Source of the DNA: Octopus sinensis
Taxonomy: Eukaryota
NCBI RefSeq assembly: GCF_006345805.1
Contig: NC_043005.1
Span: 57,040,001-57,104,000 of the forward strand
Direction: 5' to 3'
Length of the DNA: 64,000 nucleotides
Below are positions 4,460 to 49,675 of this stretch, in pieces. The notes under the pieces are model-generated. The model was not told where the DNA came from. It worked only from the letters and a program-made list of their open reading frames with translations, and searched no databases. Position 1 is the stretch's first letter, and the number at the start of each line of letters is the position of its first letter. Both the position numbers and the translations under genes were made by a program.

Positions 4460-5042
4460 AGACTTGGCAATGACGCCCTAGTTTTGCGCCACTTCTGCTC
4501 TACTGGTCCTTCACTACAACATCTGTCTGTGATTGGACTGTCTTTGCACAGAAGCCATCCACACTCCTGCCTTCGCCATGGACAGGATTTAATCTTCTCT
4601 TTTTGCTCCTTTTCACCAACTCCCCTCCTGTCTTCAGTTGGCCTCCCCTCTTCATTACCTCCTCTCAAAATTTTTTCTGGTATATTTAAAAAATATTTTA
4701 AAGTGAAAATGACTTTAAAAATTTGGTAAATATTTCATAAAAGACCTGTTTTAACCTCGGTGTGAAAGCTTTTTTCCATAGGGTTTTTTTGAGTACATTC
4801 GACATATCTCACCGCCAAAGCAACTATTTATTTATTTGTTTTTTATGTGTTATATATTTATATATTTTTTTCTGTGTTAATTGTTAACAAGAGAGTGTCT
4901 GTGTGGTAAGTAGCTTGCTCACCAACCACATGGTTCCGGGTTCAGTCCCACTGCTTGGCATCTTCGGCAAGTGTCTTCTACTATAGCCTCGGGCCAACCA
5001 AAGCCTTGTGAGCAGATTTTGTAGACAGAAACTGAAAGAAGC

Positions 5043-5084
<42 letters not shown>

Positions 5085-5280
5085 GCACGGACTTTGTCAG
5101 TGAACAGGTTGTGGATTTTAGCGAAGAAAATATTTTGACAAATTAAACTTAAATGTTGAAGTGAATCGAACGGCTTTTGTGTGTTTCTTAAATGGCTTAT
5201 AAACACCTTCCACGCTGCAATTGTTTTCGTTTCAGCACATGATCTCAGATCAAATTACTTGCTATGCGAGTACATCTCCG

Positions 5281-5330
<50 letters not shown>

Positions 5331-11768: not shown

Positions 11769-12528
11769 GTGTCGATTCTGTTTCTTTAAATATCTTGTTT
11801 ACTATTTTCTTCTATGTCTTTCTCATGTCTCCTTTTTTCACTGTCTGTCTTTTTTTTCTCTCAATGTCATGTGGACAGATACCAATATCTGAGGGTCCTG
11901 AAGTTCCTTTGTAGGCTATTGTTGGACCCCTTTATAGGCTTTGTGGTATGACAAGGGCCAATCATCTTAAAAGAATTTCCCGTCTCTCTAACTGGGGCTT
12001 TTAGCAGAATGTACTGCATAGCACTCACTCAAATCAAAATTATGAGTTAACATGACAATCTATTGGTTACTACCAGTGTTGCCCTCCCAGGGATATGCAA
12101 TACTATGTTTTGCAATCTGTGTTTTAGGGTGTACAAGGGACGGCAGGTTTTAGCTATGTTTTCATATCATTAATCTCCCTTGCCTGGTAACATTCTTGGG
12201 TGAACTGAAAATTATTTATTCCCCACAATTAGGTGAACTGGAGTATCTAGAATTATCTGGCCTAGAGTTAAAATTGCTATTTGTGTTTTGAGTTCTTGGA
12301 TGGTTGTTTTAATCCATCGCCTAGTTCAACACTACCACCTGGTCCTTGGATGCTTTTGTGGAGTTCACACTACTGCAAATGATTGGGCCAGGGCTCTGGG
12401 TTTAAACATAACTACCTCCTTTACTTTTATCCGTTTTGGAGGCCCTGTAAATATAGGCATTGCTCTTTCCTTCCTGAATTTCACTTAAGCATTCTGATAC
12501 TAATAACTTGTTATCACTTCATGTTTGA

Positions 12529-12607
12529 AGCTCTGATGAAGCTAATGGGTGATATTCTAGCACTCATAAGAGTGCATTGCATCTTATAGCAGAAACAGCT
12601 GTAAGCT
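12529..12607 (+). ncRNA. Type I hammerhead ribozyme-like fold in a PNUTS intron (sense)
   Basis: AGCU / CUGAUGA / a-GCUA...UAGC-a / GAA / palindromic ACAGCUGU / A17 / AGCU; the base of stem II is an A-A mismatch. Confidence 0.65.
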
Positions 12608-13121
12608 AGTGAAGTTCATAGCATAAGTTTTTATTCCTTTGTCTTCAAATTTTGGCACCAGCCTAGTAATTTTGAAGGAACGAGTAAGTTGATTACATTG
12701 ACTCCAGTACTCAACTGGTACTTATTTTTTCAACTTCTCAGCAGGATTAAAATTTTGTTTTTTTGCATATTTGTAATCTCCAACATCTAAAATGTAGGAA
12801 TCTGAAAAAAACTTTTCCAAAAAATGCACTTTTCAAGGAGAGTTGCGAAACTGTATTAGCCCCTCCTCTTCTCTTTTTGTTCCTTGTCCTACTCTCCTTC
12901 CATTTATTCTGCTTGTTTTCTCCTCTCTCTATATGTTTCTCAGTCTGTTTCTGTCTCTCTGTCTCTCTCACTGCCTACCTCTAACATCTACCTCTCTTTT
13001 ACTCTTCTCTCACTATATATATACCTTTCTTCCTTCCTCCCTTCCCTATCTATCCTCTCTCTCTCTCTACTTTCTATCCATCCCATTCTTCCTATCTAAC
13101 ATGTCTGTCTTATATTTTAAG

Positions 13122-20690: not shown

Positions 20691-21024
20691 GAGCACGCAT
20701 CAGTTGGCGAGGAACAAGAATACTCCTATGATCACACGCAAGAAATTGTGGCCCCACTGGAAGGAATGGATCAAGGAGCTTCACCTGGGGTCAATTTGCC
20801 ACCAGAACTAGCCAACTTGATGGCCTCTCTCCAGCCACAGATTCAACCACCACCACAACAGGAAAACACTGCAATGATGGATCATACTCCAAGTCCTGTA
20901 GTGGCTAATGTCCAGAATTTGCTCTTCTCTTTGATGGGAAACTCGGGTAATGATTATGGCAAACAGGATGAAATGACCGAGAAGTTGAAGCAAATTTTGG
21001 AACCTCTGAAAAATCAACTTCCTG
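20691..21024 (+). CDS. PPP1R10: PNUTS/PPP1R10 coding exon
   Basis: ttactag / GTTTGT; contains LPPELANLM and NVQNLLFSLMG, similar to PNUTS LPPVLANLM and NVQEILTSIMG; phase compatible on both sides. Confidence 0.9.
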
Positions 21025-21342
21025 GTTTGTAAAATATTTTATGGTGTTTCTGTATGTGATGATGTGTTTGTTGTTGTTGTTTAATATGGCATAGCTGTGT
21101 GGTTAAGAAGGTTGCTTAAAAAAAAAAATCAGGTGATTCTGACTTAGTTCAATTTCATTGTATGGCCCCTTAGGCAAACGTTTTCTATCCCTAAATTAGG
21201 ATTGAAAAATGGCATTTGGTAGCTGGAAATCTCGTTCTGTGTGTGTGTGTTTGTGTGTTTGTTTGTTTGTTTATATAAATATATATCAGAGGCAAATATG
21301 CATGTAAACAAACTAAATGTAACAGATTGGGTTTGATATACA

Positions 21343-21380
<38 letters not shown>

Positions 21381-21547
21381 ACACATGTAAACAAAGAAAG
21401 CAAAGACAGAAGATTTTCAGGCAATGAATATTTAAGTATAGATATATAGATATTTATATATTAATAGTTCAAACTTATTTAGAGTACAAACGACAGAGAA
21501 AAGTAAAGGGGAGGAGGTTAGGTGTTAGAAGTTCAACAGCTATTATA

Positions 21548-21690
<143 letters not shown>

Positions 21691-21882
21691 CTATATGGAT
21701 ATAGATATATACCTACCCATATGCATACTGGTAAAAATTCAGTTAAAATGAAATTGAATGGATATGAAAAGAAATTCTTAATGAAAATTTTGTTATAATG
21801 GAGTACAGACATGGCTGTGTGGTTGAAAAGTTCACTTCTTAGCCATCTAGCTTCAGATTCTGTCCCATTGCACGGCACCTTG

Positions 21883-21944
21883 GGTAAGCAGGATGTAATG
21901 GCTGAGAAGTTGAACCCAATTTTCGAACCACTGAGAAACTAATT
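21883..21944 (+). pseudogene. Degenerate duplicate of the 3' end of PNUTS exon 20691-21024, embedded in a SINE
   Basis: Translates [19 protein letters not shown] versus exon GKQDEMTEKLKQILEPLKNQ (20958-21017). Confidence 0.85.
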
Positions 21945-22826
21945 ATAGTTCCAGTCCAACCTTGTGAGGGAATTTGGAAGATGGTAATTGAAAGAGGCAT
22001 GTATAGTATGTATATATCATGACCATAATCATGATCATCCTCATCATTTAACTTTCACTTTTCCATGCTTGATGGGTCAGATGGAATTTGTTGAGGCAAA
22101 TTTTTCCTTATAAGAATTGTAGGGTAGCAGTTATTAGCTAATTTCTTGATCTGTGAACGAATACAGCCACTATGTTATAAAGATTATACAGTATGCAAAA
22201 TGATGGTTAATGCGGTTTGATTTATAGATATGGGAGACAACTCCAGGCCTGCTTTACTTTTATTGATGGCCGTCAGTGTATGTAAATATTAAGTAAAAAG
22301 ATGTGGCGTTAAAAAGATACAACTGGATCAAATTTTATATATCTATCTATCTATCTATATATATATATATATATAGGAGACCAAAGTGTACGTACGCCGC
22401 TATATTTTATATATAAAAAATACATATACATAATATATATATATATATATATGCAGCACGGATTTTTGTCAGTGAACAGGTCGCGGATTTTAGCAACGAA
22501 AATATTTTGACAAATTAAACTTAAATGTTGAAGTGAATTGAACGGCTTTTGTGTGTTTCTTAAATGGCTTACAAACACCTTCCACGCTGCAATTGTTTTC
22601 GTTTCAGCACACGATCTCAGATCAAATCACTTGCTATGCGAGTACATCTCCGTAATATATATATATATTTATATATATATCATCATCATCGTTTAACGTC
22701 CGTTTTCCGTGCTAGCACGGGTTGGACGGTTCAGCTAGGGTCTGGGAAGCCAAGAGGCTGCACCAGGTCTGATCTGGCAGTGTTTCTACAGCTGGGTGCT
22801 CTTCCTAATGCCAACCATATATATGG

Positions 22827-22878
<52 letters not shown>

Positions 22879-23044
22879 AGATAGGGGTTGTAAATTCAAC
22901 CCTCCATGGGATAACATATATCCAATATACTGCTAGAGAAGTACCCAACAAAGCTAATACATAAATGTTAAAAATTGCGATGCAATTAATTCATTTACTG
23001 TATTAGGTGGGCAAAGGTAAAATTATTTTTACCGTAAATTAATA

Positions 23045-23345
23045 ATACAAAATGAGAAAATGGAGAAATATATCTAAATCAATCATCAACTATCAGATAA
23101 TACCGAATCAATACTTTATTAAAACACTACACAATAGCAAAGATATTATACATTAATATAGTACAATAATTACAATCAATATGGTGAAATATATTTAGTT
23201 ATATTTCACCATATTGATTGTAATTATTGTACTATATTAATGTATAATATCTTTGCTATTGTGTAGTGTTTTAATAAAGTATTGATTCGGTATTATCTGA
23301 GAGTTGATGATTGATTTAGATATATTTCTCCATTTTCTCATTTTG

Positions 23346-23348
<3 letters not shown>
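23045..23348. repeat. Near-perfect inverted repeat (about 148 bp arms, 6 nt loop)
   Basis: Arms 23045-23193 and 23200-23348; one mismatch seen by eye. Confidence 0.95.
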
Positions 23349-23386
<38 letters not shown>

Positions 23387-23825
23387 AAGAGAACTGTTTA
23401 TAAACTTATGTTCTCTTTGAAATGTAAAGGTTTCTTTTTGGGGAAATGAAAAATTGGAAATCCAAACATGTTCTATACTAAGCTGTAGAGTGCTTTCCAT
23501 CTCTGACAGACTTTACACAGGTCATAGGGAAACTGTGGCCTGCAAGACGTTTTGAATGGCTTGCCTAAACGAAAAATTACCTGGAATTGTTTTAATAATA
23601 TGGACTGCCTGATGATGAGCTGTGTTTAGTGTATCCCATTTTTTAGAAAAAGGGTTTCCCATGCCTGCTTTACACCTCTCAGTCTCTATTACTATTTGTC
23701 ATTACGCCTAGGTGCTTCTACTCCAGTTTCAGTTTTCCTTATTTTCTGTTTGTCACCATCTTTCATAAAGTGTTTGTCACATTTTCAGTACATTTCTGAT
23801 ATGATTTTTTCCTTCCATTTTCCAG

Positions 23826-24314
23826 GTTTAGGTGGTGGCCCAATGCAGCCTCCTCAAGACTATCCCCCAGAGTATATAGATAACTGGCATGACGGTTCAC
23901 TAGACTGTCCACCACCAGGTGCTAGATGTCCTAATCCGGGTCTTCAAGGAATGCCTGGTCCACCCGGCCCATTTGGCCCTTGTCCTCCAGGGCCTGGTCT
24001 AGGGCCTGGACCTGGAGGACATGGTCCTGGACTAGGCCCTGGTCCTGGTCCTGGACCAGGCCCTGGGTTTGGACCTGGACCTGGTTTTGGACCAGGACCT
24101 GGTCATGGACCGGGACCAGGATGTGGACCTGGCCCAGGACATGGACATGGGCCGGGCCCAGGATGTGGTCCAGGTCCTGGTCCAGGACCCGGACCATGTC
24201 AAGACCAAGGCCCTGGTCATATGAGAGGAAATCGCTCAGGTCGTAACTATCCACCTCGTAATAATAGATCAATGCCTCAGGGAATGCGAGGACGACAAGG
24301 ACGTAATGGAAGAG
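23826..24314 (+). CDS. PPP1R10: PNUTS/PPP1R10 Gly/Pro-rich and RG-rich exon
   Basis: ttccag / GTACGT; open frame with GPGPG[FHCL] repeats then MRGNRSGR...MRGRQGRNGR; varied third codon positions indicate real coding sequence. Confidence 0.92.
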
Positions 24315-25536
24315 GTACGTACTTATAATTTTTTTAGTGAATTATTATTATTATTATTATTATCAAGGCTGTGAGTTGGCAGAGTTGTTGGCGTGCTGGG
24401 CAAAATACTTGGCAGCATTTCATCTGTCTTTACTTTCTGAGTTCAAATTCCGCTGAGGTCAGCTTTGCCTTGCATCTTTTCAGGGTCAATAAATTAAGTA
24501 GCAGTAAAATTACTGGGGTCGATGTAATTAACTAGTCCGCTCCCACAAAATTTCAGGCCTTGTGCCTTTAATAGAAAGAATTATTATTATTAGCATAATG
24601 TAGTGAGCTGGCAGCAGCGTTAACTCAGACAAAATGCTCTGTGGTATTCCATTTGCCTTTATGTTCTGAATTCACAATCCATTGTGGTTGATTTTGCCTT
24701 ACATCTTTTTGGGGTTAATAAAATAAATATGTTAAGTAACTGGCTTGTTCCCTCCAAAAATTTCAGGCCTTGTGCCTATAGCAGAAAGGACTACTACTGC
24801 TGCTGCTACAATCATTATTATGTTAAGTTGAAATATCTCTGAGGTCATGTTTGTCTTTTGTCTTTCTGTGGGTAACAGAATAAGGTTCTTGTGTAGCAAG
24901 TCCAGGCATGGCTGTGTGGTTAAGAAGCTTGCTTAATGACTACATGGTTCTAGGTTTGATCTCACTCTATGTCACCATAGGCAAGTGTCTTCTATCAAAG
25001 CCTTGGTTTGTGGCTCATAACTTGGGAGTTGAATTTAGTGCACAGAAACAGTGGAGAATTTCCTACTTTGCACTAACCCATCTGTCAAAGTTAGATAAGT
25101 ATGCAGCACAAAGCTCTCACTTCTGTACCTTTACAGCTAAATAAAAGGATATATTTGCTGTTGAATGTTGAGTTCTGTCTCCTATGTTTGTACCACAAAG
25201 CCTATATTTCATCATCATTATCATAATTTAACATCTGTTTTCCATGATTGCATGGATTGGATGGCTTGACAAGAACTAGCAAGGCCAGTGGCCACACCAG
25301 GTTCCCATACTCTGTTTTGGCTTAGTTTCTATAGCTTGATGCCCTTCCTAATAACACACATGCACACATACATACATACATACATACACACACGCACGCA
25401 CGCACAAACACACATTTATTTATTTGTGTGTGTGTGACAACACAACTGGTAACATTTGTTGAAATTTCCTAACTCTGCTAGAGAATTACATTTTGGGTAA
25501 CTGTATCTGTGAAATATTCAGTCAATTGCCAGTTCA

Positions 25537-25919
25537 AGGATCTTTACCTTTTGGCATACAGATTTAAAAAACAATTTTTTGTAACTAAACACTTTAAAAC
25601 TTCGGACACTAGTAGGTGTCATATAAAATATGTTTTACTCTTAGCATTTTTGAGAAAAACTTATATTTACGAAGTAATTTCATGTTAAAGTAGGCCTATT
25701 TCAGTAATTTCAACCAATGAATGACGTGTATTCAGCTGAATAAAATTACTGCCATTGTTTGTCAACAAGAACCTCCGGCGGTGTATTTTTCGTTATATGC
25801 TAACATAAGATTTTCTCAAAAATGCTAAGAGTAAAACATGTTTTATATGACACATTCTACTAGTGTCCGAAATACAAAAAAATATTTTAAAAATCTGTAT
25901 GTCAAAAGGTTAAGATCCC
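25537..25919. mobile_element. Long-TIR MITE/foldback element with 8-bp TSD in the last PNUTS intron
   Basis: About 120 bp imperfect TIRs; CCAGTTCA at 25529-25536 and 25920-25927. Confidence 0.88.
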
Positions 25920-26368
25920 CCAGTTCAGATGTTGGTTATTCAGTGGATTAAATGACTGAAACCTCATCATTGAATGACAGTGATCCACTGTGTAGTCTTC
26001 AGAGAAATTTGTCACGTATATATGTGTGTTTTTTCTTGTCTCCTTGCCTTGACATCGATTACTAATTGTAATCAAACTTTACCATCATACATGTGATATC
26101 ATTTGTTTGCAATCGTCAGTGAAAACTTGTCTGGCCATCATGCTGTTTGTGTTTGAAGGACTACAGGGAGATAAAAAAAAAAAGCCCAGTTGTGGATAAT
26201 AAGTTTTGTAGGTCTATTATCTTTATGTTCTACTAATAAAAGTATCTGGATCCAAATAAACTACATTGCTAACAGTTTTGTTTCAACCAAATTGCTTTCT
26301 TTAAAAGTACAAATAAATCAAAAATAATAACAGCTTTTTTTCTTTTCTTCTGCTTTTTTTTTTTACAG

Positions 26369-26469
26369 ATTTGCCCAAAATTTGCCGGCATTTTACTTCA
26401 CCAAATGGCTGTCGATACGGAAGCAATTGTGCATTCCTACATCCTGGTATTGATGGCCCACCATTATAG
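26369..26469 (+). CDS. PPP1R10: PNUTS/PPP1R10 last coding exon, CCCH zinc finger
   Basis: T-rich ttacag acceptor; [33 protein letters not shown] = C-x8-C-x5-C-x3-H plus the HPG..GPPL end typical of PNUTS; TAG at 26467-26469. Confidence 0.96.
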
Positions 26470-28764
26470 CAAGAAGCGAGCTTTCAGAGAACCATGTCTC
26501 ATTTTTTTTTTTGAGGGTCAGGGTGGGGATGGGTGGGTTATGGGGTTGTTCCTATGCCTGTACATAAGATACTGCATTTCATCCTGCCATCATGTGGTGT
26601 GTGTTTGTGTGTGTGAAGGGCATCCCTTACATTGTGGGTTGGTGGGGTGGTCTTATTTTTTTTTTTTTAGTTTTTTTTTCATTATCATCATTCATCTTTC
26701 TAAATTCACCCTATCCTGAATCCCCATGTGTGTACAAACTGGACCTGTCTGAGACAAGGGCAATTCAACAACCTTCACACACGCACGCACGCACGCACAC
26801 ACATACATACACACATATACACACATACACACACTCTCTCTCTCTCTCTGTGTCTTTCTTGCTCTCTTCTCTCCCACTCATTCTCTCTCCCTTCTTTCTG
26901 TCTCGTCTCATGAGGAACTTGATAAGTAAAAGGAAAAAAAAAAAATAACAAAAACAAAAAGAATCAAAGAAAAAAGTATGAAAGAAAGGAAAAGAGAGAA
27001 AAAAGTTTTGTACAATACAAATGATTTACTTCAGTTTGTTCTGTTGTTTTTTGTTTTTTTTTTATATTTTTTAAAAACTGTTTTTAAATGTGCTTGTGGA
27101 AAATGCAGAAATTTGTGTGTATGAACAAACCAACCAAACAACTAACCTATATCAGTTGGAAAGAGGGATTGGCTCTGTTTAGGTTTATTGTTGTTGTTTA
27201 ACTCCAGTTCAACTCAGAACAAATCTATAATCACCCATTATATTAAGATAGTAGGGTGTGATTTGAGGGAAGTTTTGGCTGCTATCTCTAACAGGTCGAG
27301 TGACTGCATAGAGGCTTTTCAATGGCTTCTTGCAGTGATAGCGGTTGTAGTAGAAGGTAATGACAGTACTAGTATGATGTTAATTACTCCATTAACATTC
27401 AGATTATTCTGTCAAATGTGATGCTTATGTATTCACATTGTTTTGAATTAATCATGCATTATATGAAAGCTTCAAAATTTTGATGATGTGATTGTATATT
27501 TCTAGAATAACACCATTCGAGTGTGATTGTTACCAGCATTGCCTTACTGGCACTTGAGCCCTGTGCTAGTAGGTTGCTAAGAGCACCATCCGAGTGTGAT
27601 CGTTGCCAGAGCGGCTAACTGGCTTCTGTGCTGATGGCACGTAAAAGGCACCATTCGAGCGTGATCGTTACCAGCATCGCCTTACTGGCATGTGTAAAAA
27701 GATTCGAGTGAGGTCGTTGCCAGTACCGTCTGACTGGGCCCTGTGCCAGTGGTATATAAAAGCACCCACTACACTCCCGGAGTGGTTGGCATTAGGAAGG
27801 GCATTCAGCTGTAGAAACTCTACCAGATCAAGATTGGAGCCTGGTGCGGCCATCTGGTTCGCCTGTCCTCAGTCAAAATCGTCCAACTCATGCTAGCATG
27901 GAAAGCGGACGTTAAACGATGATAATAATAATGATGATGATTGTAGGGTAGGTGTAAGAGGCAAGATCTGGACAGTTTGAGCATAAATCAAGTAAAATGT
28001 TTGAGCTGGATATGGCCAGTTTAAATGCTAAAGGTTTAACACTTACCATGGATCTGTAGAAATATGTGCAGGCTGGAGCAAGATTTTTTATTTTTTTGTG
28101 CAGATCATTATTTGGTTATGTGTATCTCCTCTCTTTACACTACCAGTGTTTATTGAAGGGAAAAATTATTTGATTTGGGCCAACATGGTTTAGCACTAGT
28201 GTCATTGTGGGTGTTACTGTTGCAATGCATCGCTGGAAATAGGCGCTGCATAGGATCTTATCTGTCCTTCCCCAACAATCAGTCCTCTAATCCATCTCCA
28301 TGTTTTGATATTTATTTTGTTTGTTAACCTTAAACAGAAAGAAACCCATTGTATATAGGTACATGTATATGTATGTGTGTGTTTATATGTTTGTCGCTTG
28401 ACAACTAATGTTGGTGTGTTTATGTCCGCGTATCATAGTGGTTTGGCAAAAGAAGAATGATAGAATAAGTACTATGCTTACAAAAATAAGTCCTGGGATC
28501 AATTTGCTCAACTAAAGGGGGTGACTGAAACAAGTAAAAGAATACATATAATCATATATATATATATGTGTGTATATTCAAAGGAATTCCAACTCTGTTT
28601 TTTATGTTTTATTTATATTCTTTATAATATTAATGTAGAATATATAGAATATATAGTAAAATGAAATGAAATATAGTAATATGAAATAAAACATAAAAAA
28701 CAGAGTTGGAATTCCTTTGAATAATATATATCCCCTTTACACAATCATACAAGCCCTTTATAAA

Positions 28765-30180: not shown

Positions 30181-30224
30181 CGTGTGTATATACATTTATA
30201 TATGTATATATACGTTTATATATC

Positions 30225-30920
30225 GTCACTTCATCCTTCGTGGATATCCTCTCACCACTATTCACACTGCCGTTACCAGCGCACGTTCCGTGGACCGTGC
30301 ATCTACTCCCTCGCTCCATCTCCTGTTTCCCCTCACCTACCACCCCACCACCCTACCTCTCCAACGCAACATTTTCCGAGCCTTCCGGCGACTCCAGTCC
30401 GACTTCTCTACTTTGCACATCTTTTCTAACTGACCCCTCCCCTCCTTCAATCGAGTCCACAACCGACGAGACCTCTTGGTCCACAGCTTCTTGCCTAGAC
30501 CAACCTCCCAATCCAGCTCGTTCCCTTCTCCCTCTCACGCTGCCGCACTTGCCCTTACTTCTCCAACACCACCCTCCTCACCGGCACTCCTCATCGATGC
30601 TATCATATCACCGACTCCTTCACTTGCATTCGTAGCAATGTCATCTAATGCATCTCCTGCTCTCTCTGCCCTTCTCTATACATCGGGCAAACGGAACACT
30701 GCTTGGCCAATCGGTTCGCGGAACACCCCCGAAACATCCAACACGGCAGTGACACCCCGGTCTCACGCCATTTCCGCTCTACTGCTCACTCTTTGCAACA
30801 CCTGTCTGTGTTCGGGCTGTCCTTGCACAGGGGCCATCCGGACTCTCGTCTTCGCCATGAACAGGGATTAATCTTCTCTCTTCGCTACTTTGCACCACAT
30901 GGGCTCAACTTTCCTCCCCT
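30225..30920 (+). mobile_element. Penelope-like element (PLE): RT thumb to GIY-YIG endonuclease, defective
   Basis: F.LRGYP motif then FTCIRSNVI*CISCSLCPSLYIGQT...LANRFAEH...PVSRHF; starts right after a (TA)n tract; related fragment at about 4464-4620. Confidence 0.88.
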
Positions 30921-31364
30921 CTCCTTTCTTCCTCTCACACGTACTTCCTCCCTCCCACCTCTCTCCTCTCTTGATCCGACTCCTCTTCACTCCTACCCTC
31001 CTTCTCCCTTCTCGTCACTCCTACCCACCGCCCTTCCCCCTCTCCCTTGATCATCACCCCTCCCTCGTAACTCCATCCTACACAATCCAACCTTACTTTT
31101 CCTATTCATCCCACCCCACCCCACCCCATCCATTACACCCACTCTCACATGCCCCACCTCTACCCCACCCTGAGTCTAACCCACACCCCACCTTTGCTTT
31201 CCCTATAATCGCCTCCCCCACATCCCAACACCACCATACCACACAAGATCACATCACACCACCACGCACACACTATCACTGACCACTTCCCAGCACCCAC
31301 ACCATCATCCACACACCTACACATGCACACACCTACACATGCACACACGCACACGTTAAGGACA

Positions 31365-32405: not shown

Positions 32406-32441
<36 letters not shown>

Positions 32442-32469
32442 CATACTCGATAACGAGGGGGCAGCCACC

Positions 32470-32569
<100 letters not shown>

Positions 32570-33350
32570 TGGCTGCCCCCTCGTTATCGAGTATGGCCAT
32601 TGCACGAAGCTTAATCAATGTTGTTATCGTGCAATGCCTGTGCAAGGAGTTTTTTTAAAGTGAGGAAAGGCTGTGCACTGAGTCAATCCCACTCACTAAG
32701 CAACAGCAGCCATAATCCTAGAAGAAGAACGAGTCAACATCATCGGTAACCACTGAGCCGCAGGTTTTATGTCGGAGTTATTCCAGTTACCTGAGTTACC
32801 TTCTCCTAGAAGGATGCCCTAACAAAGGCTAGGAGTCCTTCACTCCCAAGTGTTTAACCGCGCGATCGGGTATTCAGTCCGATTATTTCTATGTCCCCGC
32901 GCATGAAACAGCCATAATACATTTATTGGATGGCCGTTGACTCTCAAGACTTCCCCCGCCCTTTGACGGGTTTTGTTTTCCATCCCGCAGGGTGTCCAAT
33001 AATCACCCTCCGCACCAAGCAAGCTTGGTGGGGTTGCCGGTTTAGTCGCCGACGACCCGACCATATATATATATATATATATACATACATATACGTACAT
33101 ATATAAACATATATTCATATACATATATGTATATATGTTTCTATATATGTATGTATGTATATATGTATTTGTATGTATATATATATATGTATATATGTAT
33201 TTGTATGTATATGTATTGTATATATGTATTTGTATGTATATGTATTGTATATATGTATTTGTATGTATATATATGTATGTATATATATATATGTATATGT
33301 GTGTATATATGTGTGTATATATATATATGTATGTGTGTATATATGTGTAT

Positions 33351-33412
<62 letters not shown>

Positions 33413-34589
33413 CATACAAATACATATATACATACATACATATATAGAAACATACATACATATATGTATATGAATATATGTTTATATATGTACGTATATG
33501 TATGTATATATATATGGTCGGGTCGTCGGCGACTAAACCGGCAACCCCACCAAGCTTGTATACAAAATCAAGGACGGAGAAAAAAAACGGAGAAATGGTA
33601 CACAAATACAAATGCAAACAACAGGACATTAACAATAGATGTCTTTCGACTAAGGACGAATTAAATTAAGCTGGCGTGTGTGGAAATGATGCCTTACATC
33701 ATGGACATAAGAGATGACAGGAACGGAATGGAAAGGAATATAGATGTTGCACGGATGACATATATATATGTGTGTGTGTGTGCGTGTATAATATATACAC
33801 ATTTCGTTTTGGGATTTGGTTTGCAAGATTCTTTATATAAGTTCGCGTGTTGAAACATATTCTGTTGTGTCTGGGGAGAGTCATTTTCTTTTTGTGCCTT
33901 ATAATGTAAGACACCGGTAAAATTTCCACTTATTTTTAATTTTTATTTTTATAAAATAAATAAGTGGAAATTTTACCGGTGAGTGTGTTAAATTATAAGG
34001 CAAAAAAAAATGACTCACCCCAGACACAACAGTATATATATATATATATAGACAAACATATACATGCATGCATATATTTATATATGTGTGTGTATGTGCA
34101 TTGCGCGCGTGTTTGAGTGTGTGTGTATAACCATATATATATATTATATATGTGTGTGTTATATATATTATATATATGGTTATACACACACACCCAAACG
34201 CGCGCGCAATGCACATATATATATATATATATATGGTTATACACACACACCCAACATATAAATATATATATATATGGTTATACACACACACACCCAAACG
34301 CGGGTTATACACACACACCCAAACGCGCGCGCAATGCACATACACACACATATATAAATATATGCATGCATGTATATGTTTGTCTATTTTCCCAGTGTTG
34401 CTCATGCTAATTATCCCATTGATGGGATCCTAAGAGATGTTACCACTCCGGGTCAAAATACACATGGGAACAATATTAGATAAGAAGTGGTTCCATACTC
34501 CTCACGACCTTAGAACTCGCGAAGCAGAGCCCACTACTGAATGCAGTTTAAAACCGTACTCAATACTGGGCGTGGAAGGACTCTTTGTT

Positions 34590-36686: not shown

Positions 36687-37549
36687 ATATGTATATATAT
36701 ATATATATGCGTGTTTGTGTGTCTGTGTTTGTCCCTCTAGCATTGCTTGACAACCGATGCTGGTGTGTTTATGTCCCCGTAACTTAGCGGTTCGGCAAAA
36801 GAGACCAATAGAATAAGTACTGGGCTTACAAGAATAAGTCCGGGGTCGATTTGCTCGACTAAAGGCGGTGCTCCAGCATGGCCGCAGTCAAATGACTGAA
36901 ACAAGTAAAAGAGTAATATGGATATGAAAATAAACAGATCAACATATAGACAGATAGGTACATAGGTTATAAGAACAGACAAGCACACATACGCAAATGG
37001 AGACTGAAACACATGACCATACACACGCACACACACACTTTACTCCAGACAAGGACACATATGGAGTCACGGATCCACACATAGAGATGCACATCCATAC
37101 ATACAAACATGGTACATAGTTGCATAACACACACAAGGAACCAGAGGTGCATACATACACAAACACGCTCACGCACACACATACACAGAAAATACACAAA
37201 CACGGACATGCAAGCACATGAATATGCAGGATACATACATACAGATGCACACACATACATACATATATACATATGCATACACACACATATATACATACAT
37301 ACACACACATACATACATGCATGCATAGGCACACACACACACACACACTGACCCACACACATGCGCACAAACAAACAAAAAGGAACGCAGTGTAAATAAC
37401 GGACGGAGTCAAGACTATTGAACGAAATTTTAGGAAAATAAAAATAAGAAATAAGTGGAAATTTTACCGGTGCGTGTGTTACATTATAAGGCACAAAAAG
37501 AAAATGACTCTCCCCAGACACAACAGAATATACACACATATTTTATAAG

Positions 37550-37580
<31 letters not shown>

Positions 37581-38625: not shown

Positions 38626-39176
38626 GTTTCCCGGTTTCTGTGGCGTATGTGTTCTTAACTAATTTTAAACTATCTTACTTTACGGGATGTTCAAGGGCAT
38701 GAAAAAGCTAATGGAGCGCACAAATGCACGTTCCCACGGCTTTATCGATCGCATTCTCACCTGGAATCGATTTTTGTAATTTTTTCAAGACTTATATACC
38801 GTCGATATCTACATATCAAATTTGAGCGCAATCGGATGGAGGATGCCCGAGATCCCAGAAGACACACAAGCAGACAGACAGAACGGATTTTATATAATAG
38901 ATATTATATGCTTATATATACATATTTATTTATGCGCCCTTTTCAAGCCTAGCCAGGCTCATGGGCCCGGTTTCCCGGTTTCTGTGGCGTATGTGTTCTT
39001 TTTGTGCTTTACAATGTAACACACTCACCGGTAAAATTTCCACTTATTTCATATTTTTATTCTCTTAAAATTCTCGTTGCGTCTTGCAACCTTTTCAATA
39101 TGCGTCTTGCAGCCTTTTCAATAGTCTTGACTATTGAAAAGGTTGCAAGACGCATATTGAAAAGGTTGCAAGATGC

Positions 39177-39214
39177 ATATTGAAAAGGTTGCAAGACGCA
39201 ACGAAAATTTTAGG
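39177..39214 (+). ncRNA. Minimal hammerhead variant with U3-A8 core
   Basis: (c)UA / UUGAAAA-g / GUUGC-aagac-GCAAC / GAA / palindromic AAUU / U17 / UAG; stem I very short. Confidence 0.5.
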
Positions 39215-39359
39215 AGAATAAAAATATGAAATAAGTGGAAATTTTACCGGTGAGTGTGTTACATTGTAAGGCACAAAAAGAAAATGACTCTCCCCAGACA
39301 ACAGAATATGCTTCAACATACGAACTCATATAAAGAATCTTGCAAACCACATCCAAAAA

Positions 39360-39411
<52 letters not shown>

Positions 39412-39440
39412 GAATGGAGTTGAACGACGAATTAACAAAA

Positions 39441-39539
39441 TTCCTTTATTTTCGACATATGTTTCGAAAGCTGCATATTCCTAATTGCGAAGGAATAAGG
39501 AGTATATTATGCCGCTTTCTCATCAGGAAAAGCAAGGAA
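39441..39539 (-). ncRNA. Type I hammerhead ribozyme, canonical core
   Basis: Minus strand: UUCCUU-gc-UUUUC / CUGAUGA / stem II GAAAGC.GCAUA...UAUGC.GCUUUC / GAA / palindromic ACAUAUGU / C17 / GAAAA-ua-AAGGAA; all core nucleotides and three stems present. Confidence 0.85.
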
Positions 39540-39607
39540 CTTATGTCAACATCAAGATGCACAAAAAACTTTTAGATGACTGCTCACACGGAGCCCATAG
39601 CGATATA

Positions 39608-39658
<51 letters not shown>

Positions 39659-42990: not shown

Positions 42991-43616
42991 GAGAGACGAG
43001 ATGGAGGTTTAATTTGAGGGAATTTTGGCTGATACTTTCCGCAGGTCGTGCGACAATGTACAGGCTACTTCACAGAAGTGGAAGTGGATAGAAGAATCGG
43101 GAGAAAGGAGAGTGGAAGAGATAAGCGAATGAACACAGGATAAAGATCCTCCCCGAGTCATATAGACTCATAGACCCATAAGGGCCGGTTTCCTGGTTTC
43201 TGTGGCGTTTAAATTCCCTCGTGGGCGGGACGCCGAACAGTCGCAAGATTACTCATTTTTGCCAGCTGAGTGGACAGGAGCAACGTGAAACACAGTGTTT
43301 AGCTCAAGAATACAACGCATCTCCTGGACCAGAAATCGAAACTACAATCTTACGACCACAAGTCCGATACTCTAACCACTAAGCCACACGCCTTCACTAA
43401 TAAACAGAAGTTAAGGCAATTTTCTGACTATGCAAGATCTTAAGGCGGTTTTTATTTATTCTTTATAATTTCAATTGCAGCGTGGAAGCCATTTAAGAAA
43501 CACACAAAAACCGTTAGATTCACTTCAACATTTAAATTTAATTTGCCAAAATATTTTCGTCGCTTTGAGACCGCGACCTGTTCGCTGACAAAACTTCCTG
43601 CTGCATCTCGAAGTTG

Positions 43617-43663
43617 TGTCAGTGAACAGGTCGCGGTCTCAAAGCGACGAAAATATTTTGGCA
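43617..43663 (+). ncRNA. Minimal hammerhead variant with G3-C8 core (copies at 5093-5142 +, 22465-22514 +, 43542-43592 -)
   Basis: UGUCA / GUGAACA-g / GUCGC-loop-GCGAC / GAA / palindromic AAUAUU / U17 / UG(G/A)CA. Confidence 0.65.
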
Positions 43664-45649
43664 AATTAAATTTAAATGTTGAAGTGAATCTAACGGTTTT
43701 TGTGTGTTTCTTAAATGGCTTATAAACACCTTCCACGCTGCGATTGTTTTCGTTCCAGAACACGATCTCAGATCAGGTCACTTGCTATGCAAGTACATCT
43801 CCATTATAATTTCTTTTTGCAGAAAAGTAGATCTTCCGAGTTGTCAAAACGTTTTCCTGGAGCGGCACCGTGTGCTCTTGATCACTGCATCATCGCATAT
43901 ACCACTTGGCTTCATAGAAATGACTCTTCAACAAAAGCACTGTTAAGGATTTCTCAGCTACTCCCAAAACTGCATATTCATTACGATTTATAAAACGACT
44001 AACTTCACCAAACGAAATTGCAAATGCTCATTTAATGAAACGCATACGTAAATGTAAATTTCAAATGCAATACCCACATAAACACACACACACACACACG
44101 CACATACACGCATACATACATACGTATGTATGTATGTATGTATGTATGTATGTATGTATGTATGTATGTACTACGAAACCCTTTTCAAACGTCGCTAAAA
44201 TCAACAGATTCAAAGTTTCCGCAATATAATCAGATACTTCCTTCTCTTCGTACATTTCGGAAATGGAATAAAAAGCAAAGAAAAAATAAAAAAAGAACAA
44301 AAACCAGAAAAAAAGGAACATCATCATCTACACTAAAACGCACTTAGGTAATAAATGGCGGACCAAATCACGTACAAACCAACCACACCATATACTATTT
44401 GCATTTAACCCTTCGTAGGCCGGCAGGTTTGGAATTACATGAGTAAGTGCGTGATAGAGAACAAGAAATTTAGTACCCTATAAGTGTATATTTGTAATTA
44501 TTAGCGTTTAATGGAGGGAAATTAAAATATAATTTATTAACTGAAAAAAAAAAAAAACCTTCATTGAAAGAAATCAACATTTTTAATAGTTTTATAAACT
44601 ATACATATAGCACTAAATATAAAATAAAACAAAATTATTTAGTATATCGGGTCATACCAGTACATTAACGAAGAAAATTGATTTATAGTTCATCAGAATA
44701 TTTGAAAAAAGAACAGAAAAAAAATAATTTCACAGAAGGCCAATGGGGTCCAGTTAGACCCCAATGACCATATTTTATGCTATAACATTCATATGATTGG
44801 AAATCTTTTATTCAAAATTTATAAGTGCATACTTAAACTATTGAGAGGCTGTGTGGTAAGTAGCTTGCTTACCAACCACATAGTTCCGGGTTCAGTCCCA
44901 CTGCGTGGCACCTTGGGCAAGTGTCTTCTAAGGCCTATTACGGGAAAAGAAAAAGTTCTTGTTATGCTTGTACAACTGAAATTTATGAAATTCAGTGTAT
45001 TAAGAAACCAATAATGAACCCAGCATTTTCTAATTGCTGGCATGAAACTTATAAAACATCTAAATACTATAAGCATATAATATATCCCGATAAATATAAC
45101 AAAAACCTTTCTTTTGTGTGTCCTCCAAACTGCCTTACATACGTGCCTAACTTTCGATTTTATAGATCTATATATTCTAGAGTAAAACCAAATATTATTC
45201 CCGCAAAAATTTGAGCTGGTAGAAACGTTAGCACGCCGGGCAAAATTAGCGGTTTTTCGTCCGTCTTTCATGTTCCCTGAGTTCAAATTCCACCGAGGTC
45301 GACTTTGCCTTTCATCCTCTCCGGGTCGGTAAAATAAGTACTAGTTAGACACTGGTAACGATGTAATCGACTCATCCCCACCTCCCTCAAACTGCCCCTG
45401 TGGAAAATAATAAAAATTACTAGCTGGACCCGTGAAAAATTCACGGAAAACATAAAAAATGTAAGCATCTATAAACAGTGTACTGGTACCATGAGAAATG
45501 TTTGCATATTATGACCGCCTGTCTTTACTTTCTCAGTTCAAATTCTTCCGAGAGCGACTTCACCTTTTGTCCTTTCGGAGTCGATAAATTATGTACCAGT
45601 TGTGTACTGGAGTCGATCTAATCAATTACAATTATATTTATTAGTATCG

Positions 45650-45985
45650 CAACCATTATTTTAACTAGTATAGTTACTATACATGGTAAATTATGTTTCT
45701 TAAATCGTTTAAACATATATTTTGTCCAGTGTTGACATCTCATAGCCTGTTCCTTTCTAGTGTTTATAACAGTAAATTTAGAAGTGAAAATTAGGTACAT
45801 TACTTCCTCACAAAGGTCATGTCTATTATCACCTATTCTATAAGGGTTTGGCTTTCTAATTATTTCCAAGCAATCGAGTATACTTTCGCTGGTAGTATTC
45901 ATTTTGTTCCAATTTGCAAACGAACTTAAATGAGTGGCAAATCTCTGCTTAATATAACACGAGTTAGCTCCTATATATATTTCTT
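45650..45985 (-). mobile_element. PLE GIY-YIG endonuclease fragment (different family)
   Basis: YIGANSCYIKQRFATHLSSF...DLCEE...INTRKE...CQH..K pattern. Confidence 0.65.
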
Positions 45986-46839
45986 TACTACCCACAGGGG
46001 GCTAAACACAGAGGGGACAAACAAGAACAGACAAACGGATTAAGTCGATTACATCGACTCCAGTGCGTAACTGGTACTAAATTTATCGACCCCGAAAGGA
46101 TGAAAGGCAAAGTCGACCTCGGCGGAATATGAACTCGGAACGTAACGACAGACGAAATACGGCTACGCATTTCGCCCGGCGTGCTAACGTTTCTGCCAGC
46201 TCGCCGCCTTCCTATATAGAAATGCAATGGAGATCGTGCTAGTGTTGTCGTTCATTGGTAGTGCTGTTATTCTAGTTTGCTGCTTATAGGGATTGGAAAA
46301 CCGTTAAGCCACAGAACAAAACGTCTGGTGCCTATTTGTTGGAGCACATTATGCTCTGAGATCAAACCCCTCTCAGGTCAACTTCGCCTTTTATCCCTCT
46401 GGAATCGATAAAATCAAGTTCCAGTGAAGCACTGAAGTCGATTTAATCGACCAACTTCCTCACCACAAGTTTCAGGTTTTATGCCTATATTAGAAACTTT
46501 TGTTAATGGCTGTTATTATTGTTTCTCGACTCGTGAAAGATCTTAAGGACATCAATAGCAATCTTACAAACTCAGCTATTTTCTCTCATGCAGGTCTCTG
46601 AAGTGGTTTATGGCTCACAATTTTGACTTTTGACGTCAGTTACTCACCAAATGTGTCGTTGTTAAAACTCTTCAACCCTATTTACAGCCACCCGACAATC
46701 CCTGCCTCCTCTCAGTGTTCAGAAGAAGTGTCTTGTCCGAAACACTACAACTCTTTCCCCTTCCCTCCCCCTCTGTCTCTCTTCCATCTTAAAACACGAA
46801 CTTATTGTGAAATATCTTGTTAAACCTACTTGCCTAAAT

Positions 46840-49047: not shown

Positions 49048-49675
49048 GTATATGAGAACGAGAGATGACAAAGGAATAAATGATTACCTTATGAACTTCA
49101 TTAGCTTAAAGCTGTTTCTGCTATAGGATGCAGTGGTCTCACAACTGAGTGCATGAATAACACTTTAGAGCTTCATCGGAGCCTCGAATATGAAGTTCAA
49201 TTTATTTAGGAAAAAATTACATTTGTGCCTATATAAGGAACGGCCTCAATGGTGATAAAGTCAATAGAGATGTATATAGGAAAAGTTTATGTCCCAAAAT
49301 GGAAATATATGTGTATATACATACGCACACAACTCTGAAAAATTTCAGTAACCAGGTCGCAGCTGGTACGGCGTAAAATTTTGACACCAAATAATAATTA
49401 AATGAAGTTAACAGTCTTTGTGTTTTTGAATGGCTAATGTGGGTCTTCTATGCTGTAATTGTTTTAGTTTTAACACAGTCTCAGATGAAATCAATAACCA
49501 GACGATAATGTACATCTCCAATATATATTTCCGATGAAGAGCCATTCTCGAAACGTCACTCATATTTTTCTGACTAATACTTTCACTGAGCGTCAGTCTA
49601 ATATATTCACTGTGTAAGTCCAATTGACTTTTGATTTTTCTTGTTTTTTAAATTTTTAATTTGCCTACACACGCA

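What the first reader, a model, noticed from the sequence alone, without database searches (positions are those of the whole stretch)
39407..39602. Complete canonical hammerhead in a ~200 bp insert bounded by (TA)n on both sides
Seen on the - strand: intact CUGAUGA/GAA core, extended stem I with an internal loop (UUCCUU..UUUUC pairing with GAAAA..AAGGAA), long stem II with an extra internal hairpin (tattcct/aggaata) and palindromic stem III ACAUAUGU. The predicted GUC cleavage falls between 39454 and 39453. It is the best candidate for an active ribozyme in the window, and stem II is unusually long for a minimal PLE hammerhead.
Basis: partly seen in the sequence, partly recalled or inferred. 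Interest (0 to 1): 0.7.

Follow-up and report, generated by a model that had tools for sequence, protein, structure and literature searches.

The report
Hammerhead in truncated Penelope-element tail
An intact hammerhead-ribozyme motif sits in a 200-base piece of a very common repeat family, likely the cut-short tail of a Penelope-type jumping gene that landed in a TA repeat; this is an already known kind of element, unusual only in its long second stem, and it is predicted to cut mainly in pairs.

Summary
The motif is real: one type I hammerhead on the - strand with a full core and a GUC site at 39454/39453. Rfam Hammerhead_1 gives 25.5 bits, E 1.8e-4, below the gathering score of 34. It is not a closed ~200 bp unit. 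Contigs of four public runs show a high-copy family (158-1757 contigs laid per run). Its copies commonly run into TA at the RNA 3' end, 46 nt past the cleavage site, and thin out towards the 5' end. Other copies continue past 39605, so this copy is 5'-truncated. No core letter varies at 5% or more. No head-to-tail joint was seen. This fits the 3' end of an endonuclease-bearing Penelope-like element inserted into (TA)n, closest to the Hydra clade; the link to a coding region is not shown. Folding predicts under 1% active monomer, whereas two copies fold as a double hammerhead. Stem II is one unbranched 54-nt helix with a 12-nt bulge: over twice any listed Hydra-clade stem II, but with precedent in spike-moss elements. 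Cleavage was not tested. Verdict: new member of a known kind, low interest.

The parts
39362..39407 (.). (TA)23 array at the RNA 3' end; inferred insertion target
   Evidence: other copies also run into TA or TAAA here (tables 2, 7); the repeat to its left also ends in a TA/CA tract at its paralogue near 33760-33800, where no hammerhead element follows
39408..39439 (-). 3' tail of the element; the last non-TA base lies 46 nt past the cleavage site
   Evidence: highest-depth part of the family
39440..39453 (-). stem I, 3' strand (proximal 5 bp, 2-nt loop side, distal helix)
   Evidence: family variants at 39449 and 39451 keep pairing
39454..39465 (-). GAAA core half, 8-nt palindromic stem III (39462-39455) and GUC triplet (39456-39454); predicted cleavage 39454/39453
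   Evidence: no core variant at 5% or more
39466..39519 (-). stem II, 54 nt, unbranched: 6 bp, G.A mismatch, 5 bp, 12-nt bulge (39507-39496), 5 bp, 8-nt loop
   Evidence: the middle and distal helices show no variant at 5% or more, the bulge and loop do
39520..39526 (-). CUGAUGA core half
   Evidence: no variant at 5% or more
39527..39540 (-). stem I, 5' strand with the other side of the 2x2 internal loop
   Evidence: variant at 39531 can pair with the variant at 39449 (linkage not shown)
39541..39610 (-). 5' remnant of the element, ending at a locus-specific 5' truncation near 39606-39610
   Evidence: loose ends after 39605 in all four runs; X9 records 29 and 32 carry 59 and 96 further letters upstream
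39611..39655 (.). (TA)n array at the 5' junction; inferred other half of the target microsatellite
   Evidence: depth across this junction is at most 1.1% of the previous bin

Best explanation
The 200-base piece holds an intact type I hammerhead motif and is one 5'-truncated copy of a high-copy repeat family, likely the 3' end (pseudo-LTR region) of an endonuclease-bearing Penelope-like retroelement that inserted into a (TA)n microsatellite. Shown: the motif, the family, the shared 3' junction with TA, the private 5' junction, and longer copies elsewhere. Inferred from published PLE biology: the element's GIY-YIG endonuclease nicked the TA tract, and its reverse transcriptase started about 46 nt downstream of the ribozyme's cut site and stopped after about 200 nt. 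The ribozyme cut therefore defines neither end of the insert. Predicted: the 2-bp stem III is too weak in a single RNA, so cleavage after GUC would happen mainly when two copies pair through the 8-nt palindrome (double hammerhead), as in tandem precursor RNAs, possibly with protein help. This solitary copy is likely a passenger with no role of its own. The closest clade is Hydra (about 0.5 within this reading); a non-autonomous derivative mobilised by such an element is included in it.
For: Family: 1757, 1300, 388 and 158 contigs laid in runs X1, X3, X7, X9, with summed depth up to 1.3 million against 30-80 for many single contigs (the tool says this is no copy number). Depth falls 3.9- to 13.7-fold from 39430 to 39582. 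The TA-only bin at the 3' end keeps 35-41% of the next bin's depth, whereas the TA bin at the 5' end keeps 0-1.1%. Longer copies exist (tables 7, 8). 4 of 4 listed joints change strand and 0 go back, as expected for the inverted truncated copies described for PLEs. 0 of 13 core places vary, against 7 of 58 paired and 7 of 30 unpaired places. Unconstrained two-strand folding gives the double hammerhead at -60.4 against 2 x -26.5 kcal/mol. Craig et al. 2021 (PMC8557442): Hydra-clade elements carry canonical hammerheads and almost all insert into (TA)n; their stem III is a 9-10 nt near-palindrome; 3 of 6 printed Hydra consensi end 36-47 nt past the cut site (hand count). The window holds GIY-YIG-like fragments: Atlas feature scores 0.94-0.95 for 30649-30918 and 0.90-0.91 for 45621-46001. 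The first lies in a fragment that begins right after a TA tract. Frangieh et al. 2024 (PMC11167929): reverse transcription starts inside the RNA, downstream of the hammerhead, and that hammerhead needs the protein.
Against: No reverse transcriptase or endonuclease reading frame is linked to this family: no genome is held and the upstream letters of longer copies were not returned beyond 30-letter consensus ends of agreement 0.57-0.7. The hammerhead differs from that of Hydra-1_Obim and all 26 Hydra rows: stem II 54 nt against at most 24 nt, stem III 8 nt against 9-10 nt; 0 of 6 short motifs (three from this element, two from the left repeat, one from the second family) occur in that supplement. 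The 8-nt stem III and the internal loop in stem I match the canonical retrozyme-type hammerhead as well (alignment). The depth gradient can also come from divergence and contig fragmentation. The conservation contrasts are not significant (p 0.13 and 0.07). One stem II variant (39515, 12-26%) breaks a pair, and at 39469/39516 about half of the depth implies an A.C mismatch. Hammerheads with 2-bp stem III did cleave as monomers in coral and mussel (0.8 and 0.1 per min), so the dimer requirement is only a prediction.
Confidence: 0.78

Rival explanations
1. A truncated or permuted monomer of a non-LTR retrozyme: a 200-450 nt tandem unit that is cut to unit length by the hammerhead, circularised and reinserted.
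For: Canonical type I geometry with an 8-nt palindromic stem III and an internal loop in stem I; size and GC content in the published range; molluscs have such elements, and the mussel hammerhead also lacks the usual tertiary-contact letters; solo monomers are common.
Against: 0 of 4 listed joints go back; the loose ends shown at the 3' end are TA or TAAA tracts, not a unique next unit (128 loose ends were not shown); a shared 3' end with a 5' gradient is not what permuted circles predict; single copy in the window. A unit longer than the 217 bases laid would not show its junction, so this is not excluded. Li et al. 2026 argue that retrozymes derive from PLE ends, so the two readings overlap.
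Confidence: 0.13
2. A SINE-like non-autonomous element with its own internal promoter upstream and the hammerhead near its 3' end, mobilised by a LINE and ending in a TA tail (as described for schistosome hammerhead SINE-like repeats).
For: Shared 3' end in a simple repeat and a 5' gradient fit any target-primed element; schistosome precedent (passages).
Against: TA on both sides of a 5'-truncated copy points to a TA target, not only a tail; strand-changing joints; the upstream part was not seen, so no promoter evidence.
Confidence: 0.06
3. A ribozyme kept by the host at this locus to process a transcript.
For: Core intact; the near-private U at 39469 gives an A-U pair in stem II.
Against: It is one of very many similar copies and lies between other repeats; intact core is the family state; monomer fold predicted weak; no RNA end data.
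Confidence: 0.02
4. Chance motif.
For: Below Rfam's gathering score; a loose descriptor gives 42 hits in 150 simulated windows; the whole 196 nt folds no better than shuffles (z -0.79).
Against: 0 of 150 simulated windows with the strict descriptor; z -2.87 for the 112-nt motif; 0 of 116 metagenome matches to core plus palindrome have both stems; core unvaried across the family.
Confidence: 0.01

Closest known systems
Hydra-clade Penelope-like elements, including Hydra-1_Obim (Craig et al. 2021, PMC8557442; passages, sections 11-12, supplement parts 1, 2, 52, 53 read)
   Same: Canonical type I hammerhead near the 3' end, palindromic stem III starting AC, (TA)n insertion, 36-47 nt from cut site to end in 3 of 6 printed consensi (46 nt here).
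   Different: Stem II 54 nt against at most 24 nt in 26 rows; stem III 8 nt against 9-10 nt; sequence unlike Hydra-1_Obim; no reading frame linked here.
Minimal hammerheads of metazoan PLEs (Cervera and De la Pena 2014, PMC4209133; parts 1-2 of 4 read)
   Same: Type I, in PLE ends, mostly solitary truncated copies, weak alone and better as dimers.
   Different: Those lack or nearly lack stem III, have 7-8 bp stem II and an extra base after A9; this one has a 2-bp stem III with a 4-nt loop, no extra base, a long bulged stem II and an extended stem I.
Non-LTR retrozymes of animals (Cervera and De la Pena 2020, PMC7229834, parts 2-3 of 6; Li et al. 2026 preprint 10.64898/2026.07.22.740005, parts 1-3 of 5)
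   Same: Canonical type I hammerhead with 2-bp stem III, non-coding unit of a few hundred bases, high copy number.
   Different: No tandem array or back-joint seen; shared 3' end at TA and 5' truncation; stem II far longer than 4 bp.
Rfam RF00163 Hammerhead_1
   Same: Core, 8-nt palindromic stem III and stem I align over model positions 1-45.
   Different: 25.5 bits against gathering 34; 50 letters stand where the model has 10.
PLE-X1_sMoe hammerhead of spike moss (File S2 of PMC8557442)
   Same: PLE hammerhead with a stem II domain of about 53 nt (hand count).
   Different: Plant, endonuclease-less, 28S rDNA target; flagged as non-canonical; no sequence likeness claimed.

Membership tests
Type I hammerhead ribozyme | Core CUGANGA, GAAA and NUH triplet in type I order | tested here: met
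Type I hammerhead ribozyme | Stems I and II around the core, with G10.1-C11.1 | tested here: met
   pair probabilities 0.80-1.0
Type I hammerhead ribozyme | Stem III able to form | tested here: inconclusive
   0.01-0.02 in the monomer, 8 bp in the two-strand fold; tertiary contacts are not modelled
Type I hammerhead ribozyme | Site-specific self-cleavage | not testable with these tools
   only contigs were available
Rfam RF00163 | Score at or above 34 bits | tested here: not met
   25.5 bits, E 1.8e-4
EN+ Penelope-like element (3' end) | Hammerhead a few tens of bases from a shared 3' end | tested here: met
   46 nt; shared TA junction
EN+ Penelope-like element (3' end) | Dispersed, mostly 5'-truncated copies, some with inverted parts | tested here: met
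   depth gradient, longer copies, 4 strand-changing joints each in one contig; gradient has other possible causes
EN+ Penelope-like element (3' end) | RT plus GIY-YIG reading frame upstream in full copies | not testable with these tools
   no genome held; pattern scans found no locus of the family
Hydra clade | Insertion into (TA)n | tested here: met
   Neptune and Naiad elements share this preference
Hydra clade | Hammerhead shaped like the listed Hydra hammerheads | tested here: inconclusive
   palindromic stem III alike, but 8 nt against 9-10 nt and stem II over twice as long
Hydra clade | Protein motifs (RWK, DKT, CxCX5C linker, CxxC and CxH, no CCHH) | not testable with these tools
   no frame linked; a C-x-H-like reading at 39551-39543 was judged chance
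Non-LTR retrozyme | Head-to-tail tandem units, each with a hammerhead | tested here: inconclusive
   single copy in the window; 0 of 4 joints go back; a unit longer than the stretch laid would be missed
Non-LTR retrozyme | Abundant small circular RNA | not testable with these tools
   run X9 is only guessed to be RNA and is held as contigs

The most novel reading that the evidence does not exclude
This host lineage carries a distinct hammerhead subtype, present in at least two unrelated TA-ending repeat families (this one and the family at 12516-12646 / 49064-49196), with an 8-nt palindromic stem III and a stem II of over 50 nt. Its far helix (UAUUCC paired with GGAAUA) is kept in a subfamily whose proximal stem II and loop differ, so it could be a functional domain: a binding site for the element's protein or a docking partner for the stem I loop that switches cleavage on.
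Probability: 0.2. Interest if true: 0.5.

Novelty: new member of a known kind. Interest (0 to 1): 0.22.

Why it matters
Little on its own: hammerheads at the ends of Penelope-like elements in (TA)n tracts are described, including in octopus. The family is a usable test case for an open point, namely what PLE hammerheads do, since it has an intact core, many natural variants and a clean monomer-versus-dimer prediction. The long stem II also shows why descriptor and Rfam screens miss such families. My two searches for a report of this family (where a 2026 octopus repeat annotation never mentions hammerheads or ribozymes) found none, but subscription papers and Repbase were not searchable.

Tried and rejected
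No own genome. Family-specific patterns: 0 matches in metagenome, viral and prokaryote collections. Idea that the insert encodes the C-x-H end of a Hydra endonuclease (frame reading ..CAS*C*HKF): rejected as likely chance, since an upstream stop shows no variant, the spacing to KF differs from the printed Hydra ends, and those place the hammerhead 100-300 nt after the frame. Contigs ending at 39452 in run X9 are not cleavage evidence: DNA runs end there too, next to a common variant at 39451. X9 coverage is not evidence of expression (RNA status is a guess). A 12-letter match between the insert's 3' tail and 39790 was treated as chance. miRNA-family matches are TA-repeat artefacts. Protein searches with the 45621-46001 fragment and with 20691-21029 found no hit, so neither the clade of that fragment nor the host was confirmed by alignment; Pfam gave no match at curated cut-offs for 15 of 15 frames. 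The host is called octopus-like only from recalled repeat appearance and mollusc-labelled Atlas clusters. The two long-stem families share no clear sequence homology outside the core. Earlier-finding look-ups by sequence and place were empty. Not seen: Lunse et al. on dimeric PLE hammerheads (not held; known only through the review passage), the supplement of PMC7229834 (too large; it shows the mussel hammerheads and may bear on stem II length), the supplement of PMC13282606 (listed, not read), bioRxiv supplements.

Full report
Observation. The - strand of 39540-39440 holds a type I hammerhead: CUGAUGA at 39526-39520, GAAA at 39465-39462, the palindrome ACAUAUGU and a GUC triplet, with the cut predicted between 39454 and 39453. 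It is the only descriptor hit among 25 CUGANGA sites in the window. Rfam Hammerhead_1 matches model positions 1-45 at 25.5 bits, E 1.8e-4, when 161 bases are searched; this is under the gathering score of 34, and the whole-window scan finds nothing. The 112-nt motif folds better than shuffles (z -2.87), the whole 196 nt does not (z -0.79). A strict descriptor, with stem lengths set from this motif, found 0 hits in 150 simulated windows; a loose one found 42. Of 116 metagenome matches to core plus palindrome, 0 had both stems.

Anatomy. Stem I is 5 bp, a 2x2 loop and 6-7 bp. Stem II is 54 nt and unbranched: 6 bp, a G.A mismatch, 5 bp, a 12-nt bulge, 5 bp and an 8-nt loop. Stem III is 2 bp with a 4-nt loop in a single RNA and forms with probability 0.01-0.02; the active monomer fold has probability 0.007 at 37 C and 0.001 at 20 C. 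Two copies folded without constraints give the double hammerhead, with both cores open, an 8-bp stem III between strands and swapped stems I, at -60.4 against 2 x -26.5 kcal/mol. These models ignore tertiary contacts, and coral and mussel hammerheads cleaved as monomers (PMC7229834), so the dimer requirement is a prediction.

It is a repeat family. No genome is held, so I used public runs. 22 of 24 listed runs hold the 601-base stretch or part of it; four species labels hold 0.46 or more of its words. I laid 4 of the 24 on 39398-39614 at 80% likeness: 1757, 1300, 388 and 158 contigs, with summed depth up to 1.3 million where many single contigs have 30-80. Depth falls 3.9- to 13.7-fold from the RNA 3' part to the 5' part. 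At the 3' end the TA-only bin keeps 35-41% of the next bin, and the loose ends shown are TA or TAAA tracts. At the 5' end the TA bin keeps 0-1.1%, loose ends continue in other sequence in all four runs, and two X9 contigs carry 59 and 96 more letters. So the 3' TA junction is shared and the 5' junction is private: this copy is truncated. The family letters after 39605 explain the G at 39609 and move the boundary to about 39610 (inference). All 4 listed joints change strand, each in one contig; none goes back.

Variation. Within 39440-39540, 14 places vary at 5% or more: 0 of 13 core, 7 of 58 paired, 7 of 30 unpaired (p 0.13 and 0.07, not significant). Of the paired ones, 39449 with 39531 would turn U-A into C-G (16-23% and 24-36%; linkage not shown), 39451 and 39470 give G.U, and 39515 breaks a pair (12-26%). 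At 39469 this copy's U is nearly private (C in 99.7-100%), while its partner is G in only 44-52%, so many copies have a mismatch there. A subfamily seen as a loose end after 39468 (20, 11 and 3 contigs in three runs) has a different proximal stem II but keeps the far helix with a 3-nt loop.

Context. To the left lies another repeat whose paralogue near 33760-33960 also ends in a TA/CA tract with no hammerhead element after it; to the right lies a LINE-like fragment (weak RVT_1 match, E 0.013; family name recalled, not tested). The insert therefore most likely entered an existing microsatellite. The window holds GIY-YIG-like fragments (Atlas 0.94-0.95 and 0.90-0.91; leads, since no alignment confirmed them), the first in a fragment that starts right after a TA tract. 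The host looks like an octopus by recalled repeat content; two protein searches did not confirm this.

Mechanism. Shown: motif, family, shared 3' end, truncation. Inferred from Craig et al. 2021 (PMC8557442) and Frangieh et al. 2024 (PMC11167929): a PLE endonuclease nicks the TA tract, reverse transcription starts inside the RNA some tens of bases past the hammerhead, and early stops leave short 3' ends like this one. In the Anolis element the hammerhead needed the protein, was dispensable for insertion in vitro, and left no RNA ends in public data. The hammerhead would act, if at all, on tandem precursor RNA. This lone copy is likely inert.

Comparison. Hydra-clade PLEs have canonical hammerheads, almost all insert into (TA)n, and include an octopus family. 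3 of 6 printed consensi end 36-47 nt past the cut site, the other 3 about 88-116 nt (hand counts); here it is 46. Against membership: stem II is at most 24 nt and stem III 9-10 nt in the 26 Hydra rows, the sequence is unlike Hydra-1_Obim, and 0 of 6 motifs occur in that supplement. The protein features that define the clade could not be tested. A spike-moss PLE has a stem II of about 53 nt, so the length has precedent. Retrozymes share the hammerhead geometry but need tandem units, which were not seen; a 2026 preprint derives them from PLE ends anyway. An earlier AI note on another genome reached a like reading; it is not evidence.

Verdict. Observation confirmed with three corrections. It works like a dimer-type PLE hammerhead; filing it as the 3' end of a TA-targeting PLE is likely (0.78) but lacks the reading-frame link. 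New member of a known kind, interest 0.22. The boldest open reading, a long-stem-II subtype with a functional far helix shared in design by a second family in this window, has probability 0.2.

Noticed in passing
window 12516-12646 (+) and 49064-49196 (-): Second hammerhead-like family, 78% alike: CUGAUGA, stem II of about 55 nt, palindromic ACAGCUGU stem III, GUA triplet; A.A at the stem II closing pair; the copy at 49 kb has core changes and ends in TA. Two-strand fold pairs the palindromes; no Rfam hammerhead match.
   Followed up: partly
window 45618-46001 (-): Decayed GIY-YIG frame ending in C-x-H, by eye like the Hydra-clade endonuclease ends; flanked by SINE-like repeats; Atlas 0.90-0.91 to GIY-YIG clusters, no protein-search hit.
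   Followed up: partly
window 30224-31050 (+), 4460-4640 (+): Two related PLE-like fragments, each starting right after a TA tract; the first scores 0.94-0.95 to GIY-YIG clusters.
   Followed up: partly
window 4324 (+) and 49532-49558 (+): Remnants of minimal PLE-type hammerheads; the second reads CCGAUGA in the core and has no stem I.
   Followed up: no
window 38996-39361: Repeat with a long inverted structure and 23-nt units on both arms; paralogues at 33759-34084 and 37421-37576; ends in TA-rich tracts.
   Followed up: partly
window 32440-32600: A 30-base unit appears twice in opposite orientation, each copy facing the long TA array between them.
   Followed up: no
window 5081-5285, 22452-22657, 43479-43808: A 205-base repeat bounded by TA on both sides at two loci; the third locus has an inverted partial copy attached, a PLE-like arrangement without a canonical hammerhead.
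   Followed up: no
window 20691-26470 (+): Exon-like frames with a Gly-Pro repeat and a C3H zinc-finger-like end, by recall similar to PNUTS (PPP1R10); no database confirmation.
   Followed up: partly
joints 39446/39517, 39505/39559, 39528/39605, 39532/39605: Four single-contig strand-changing joints: other loci hold inverted pieces of this family.
   Followed up: no
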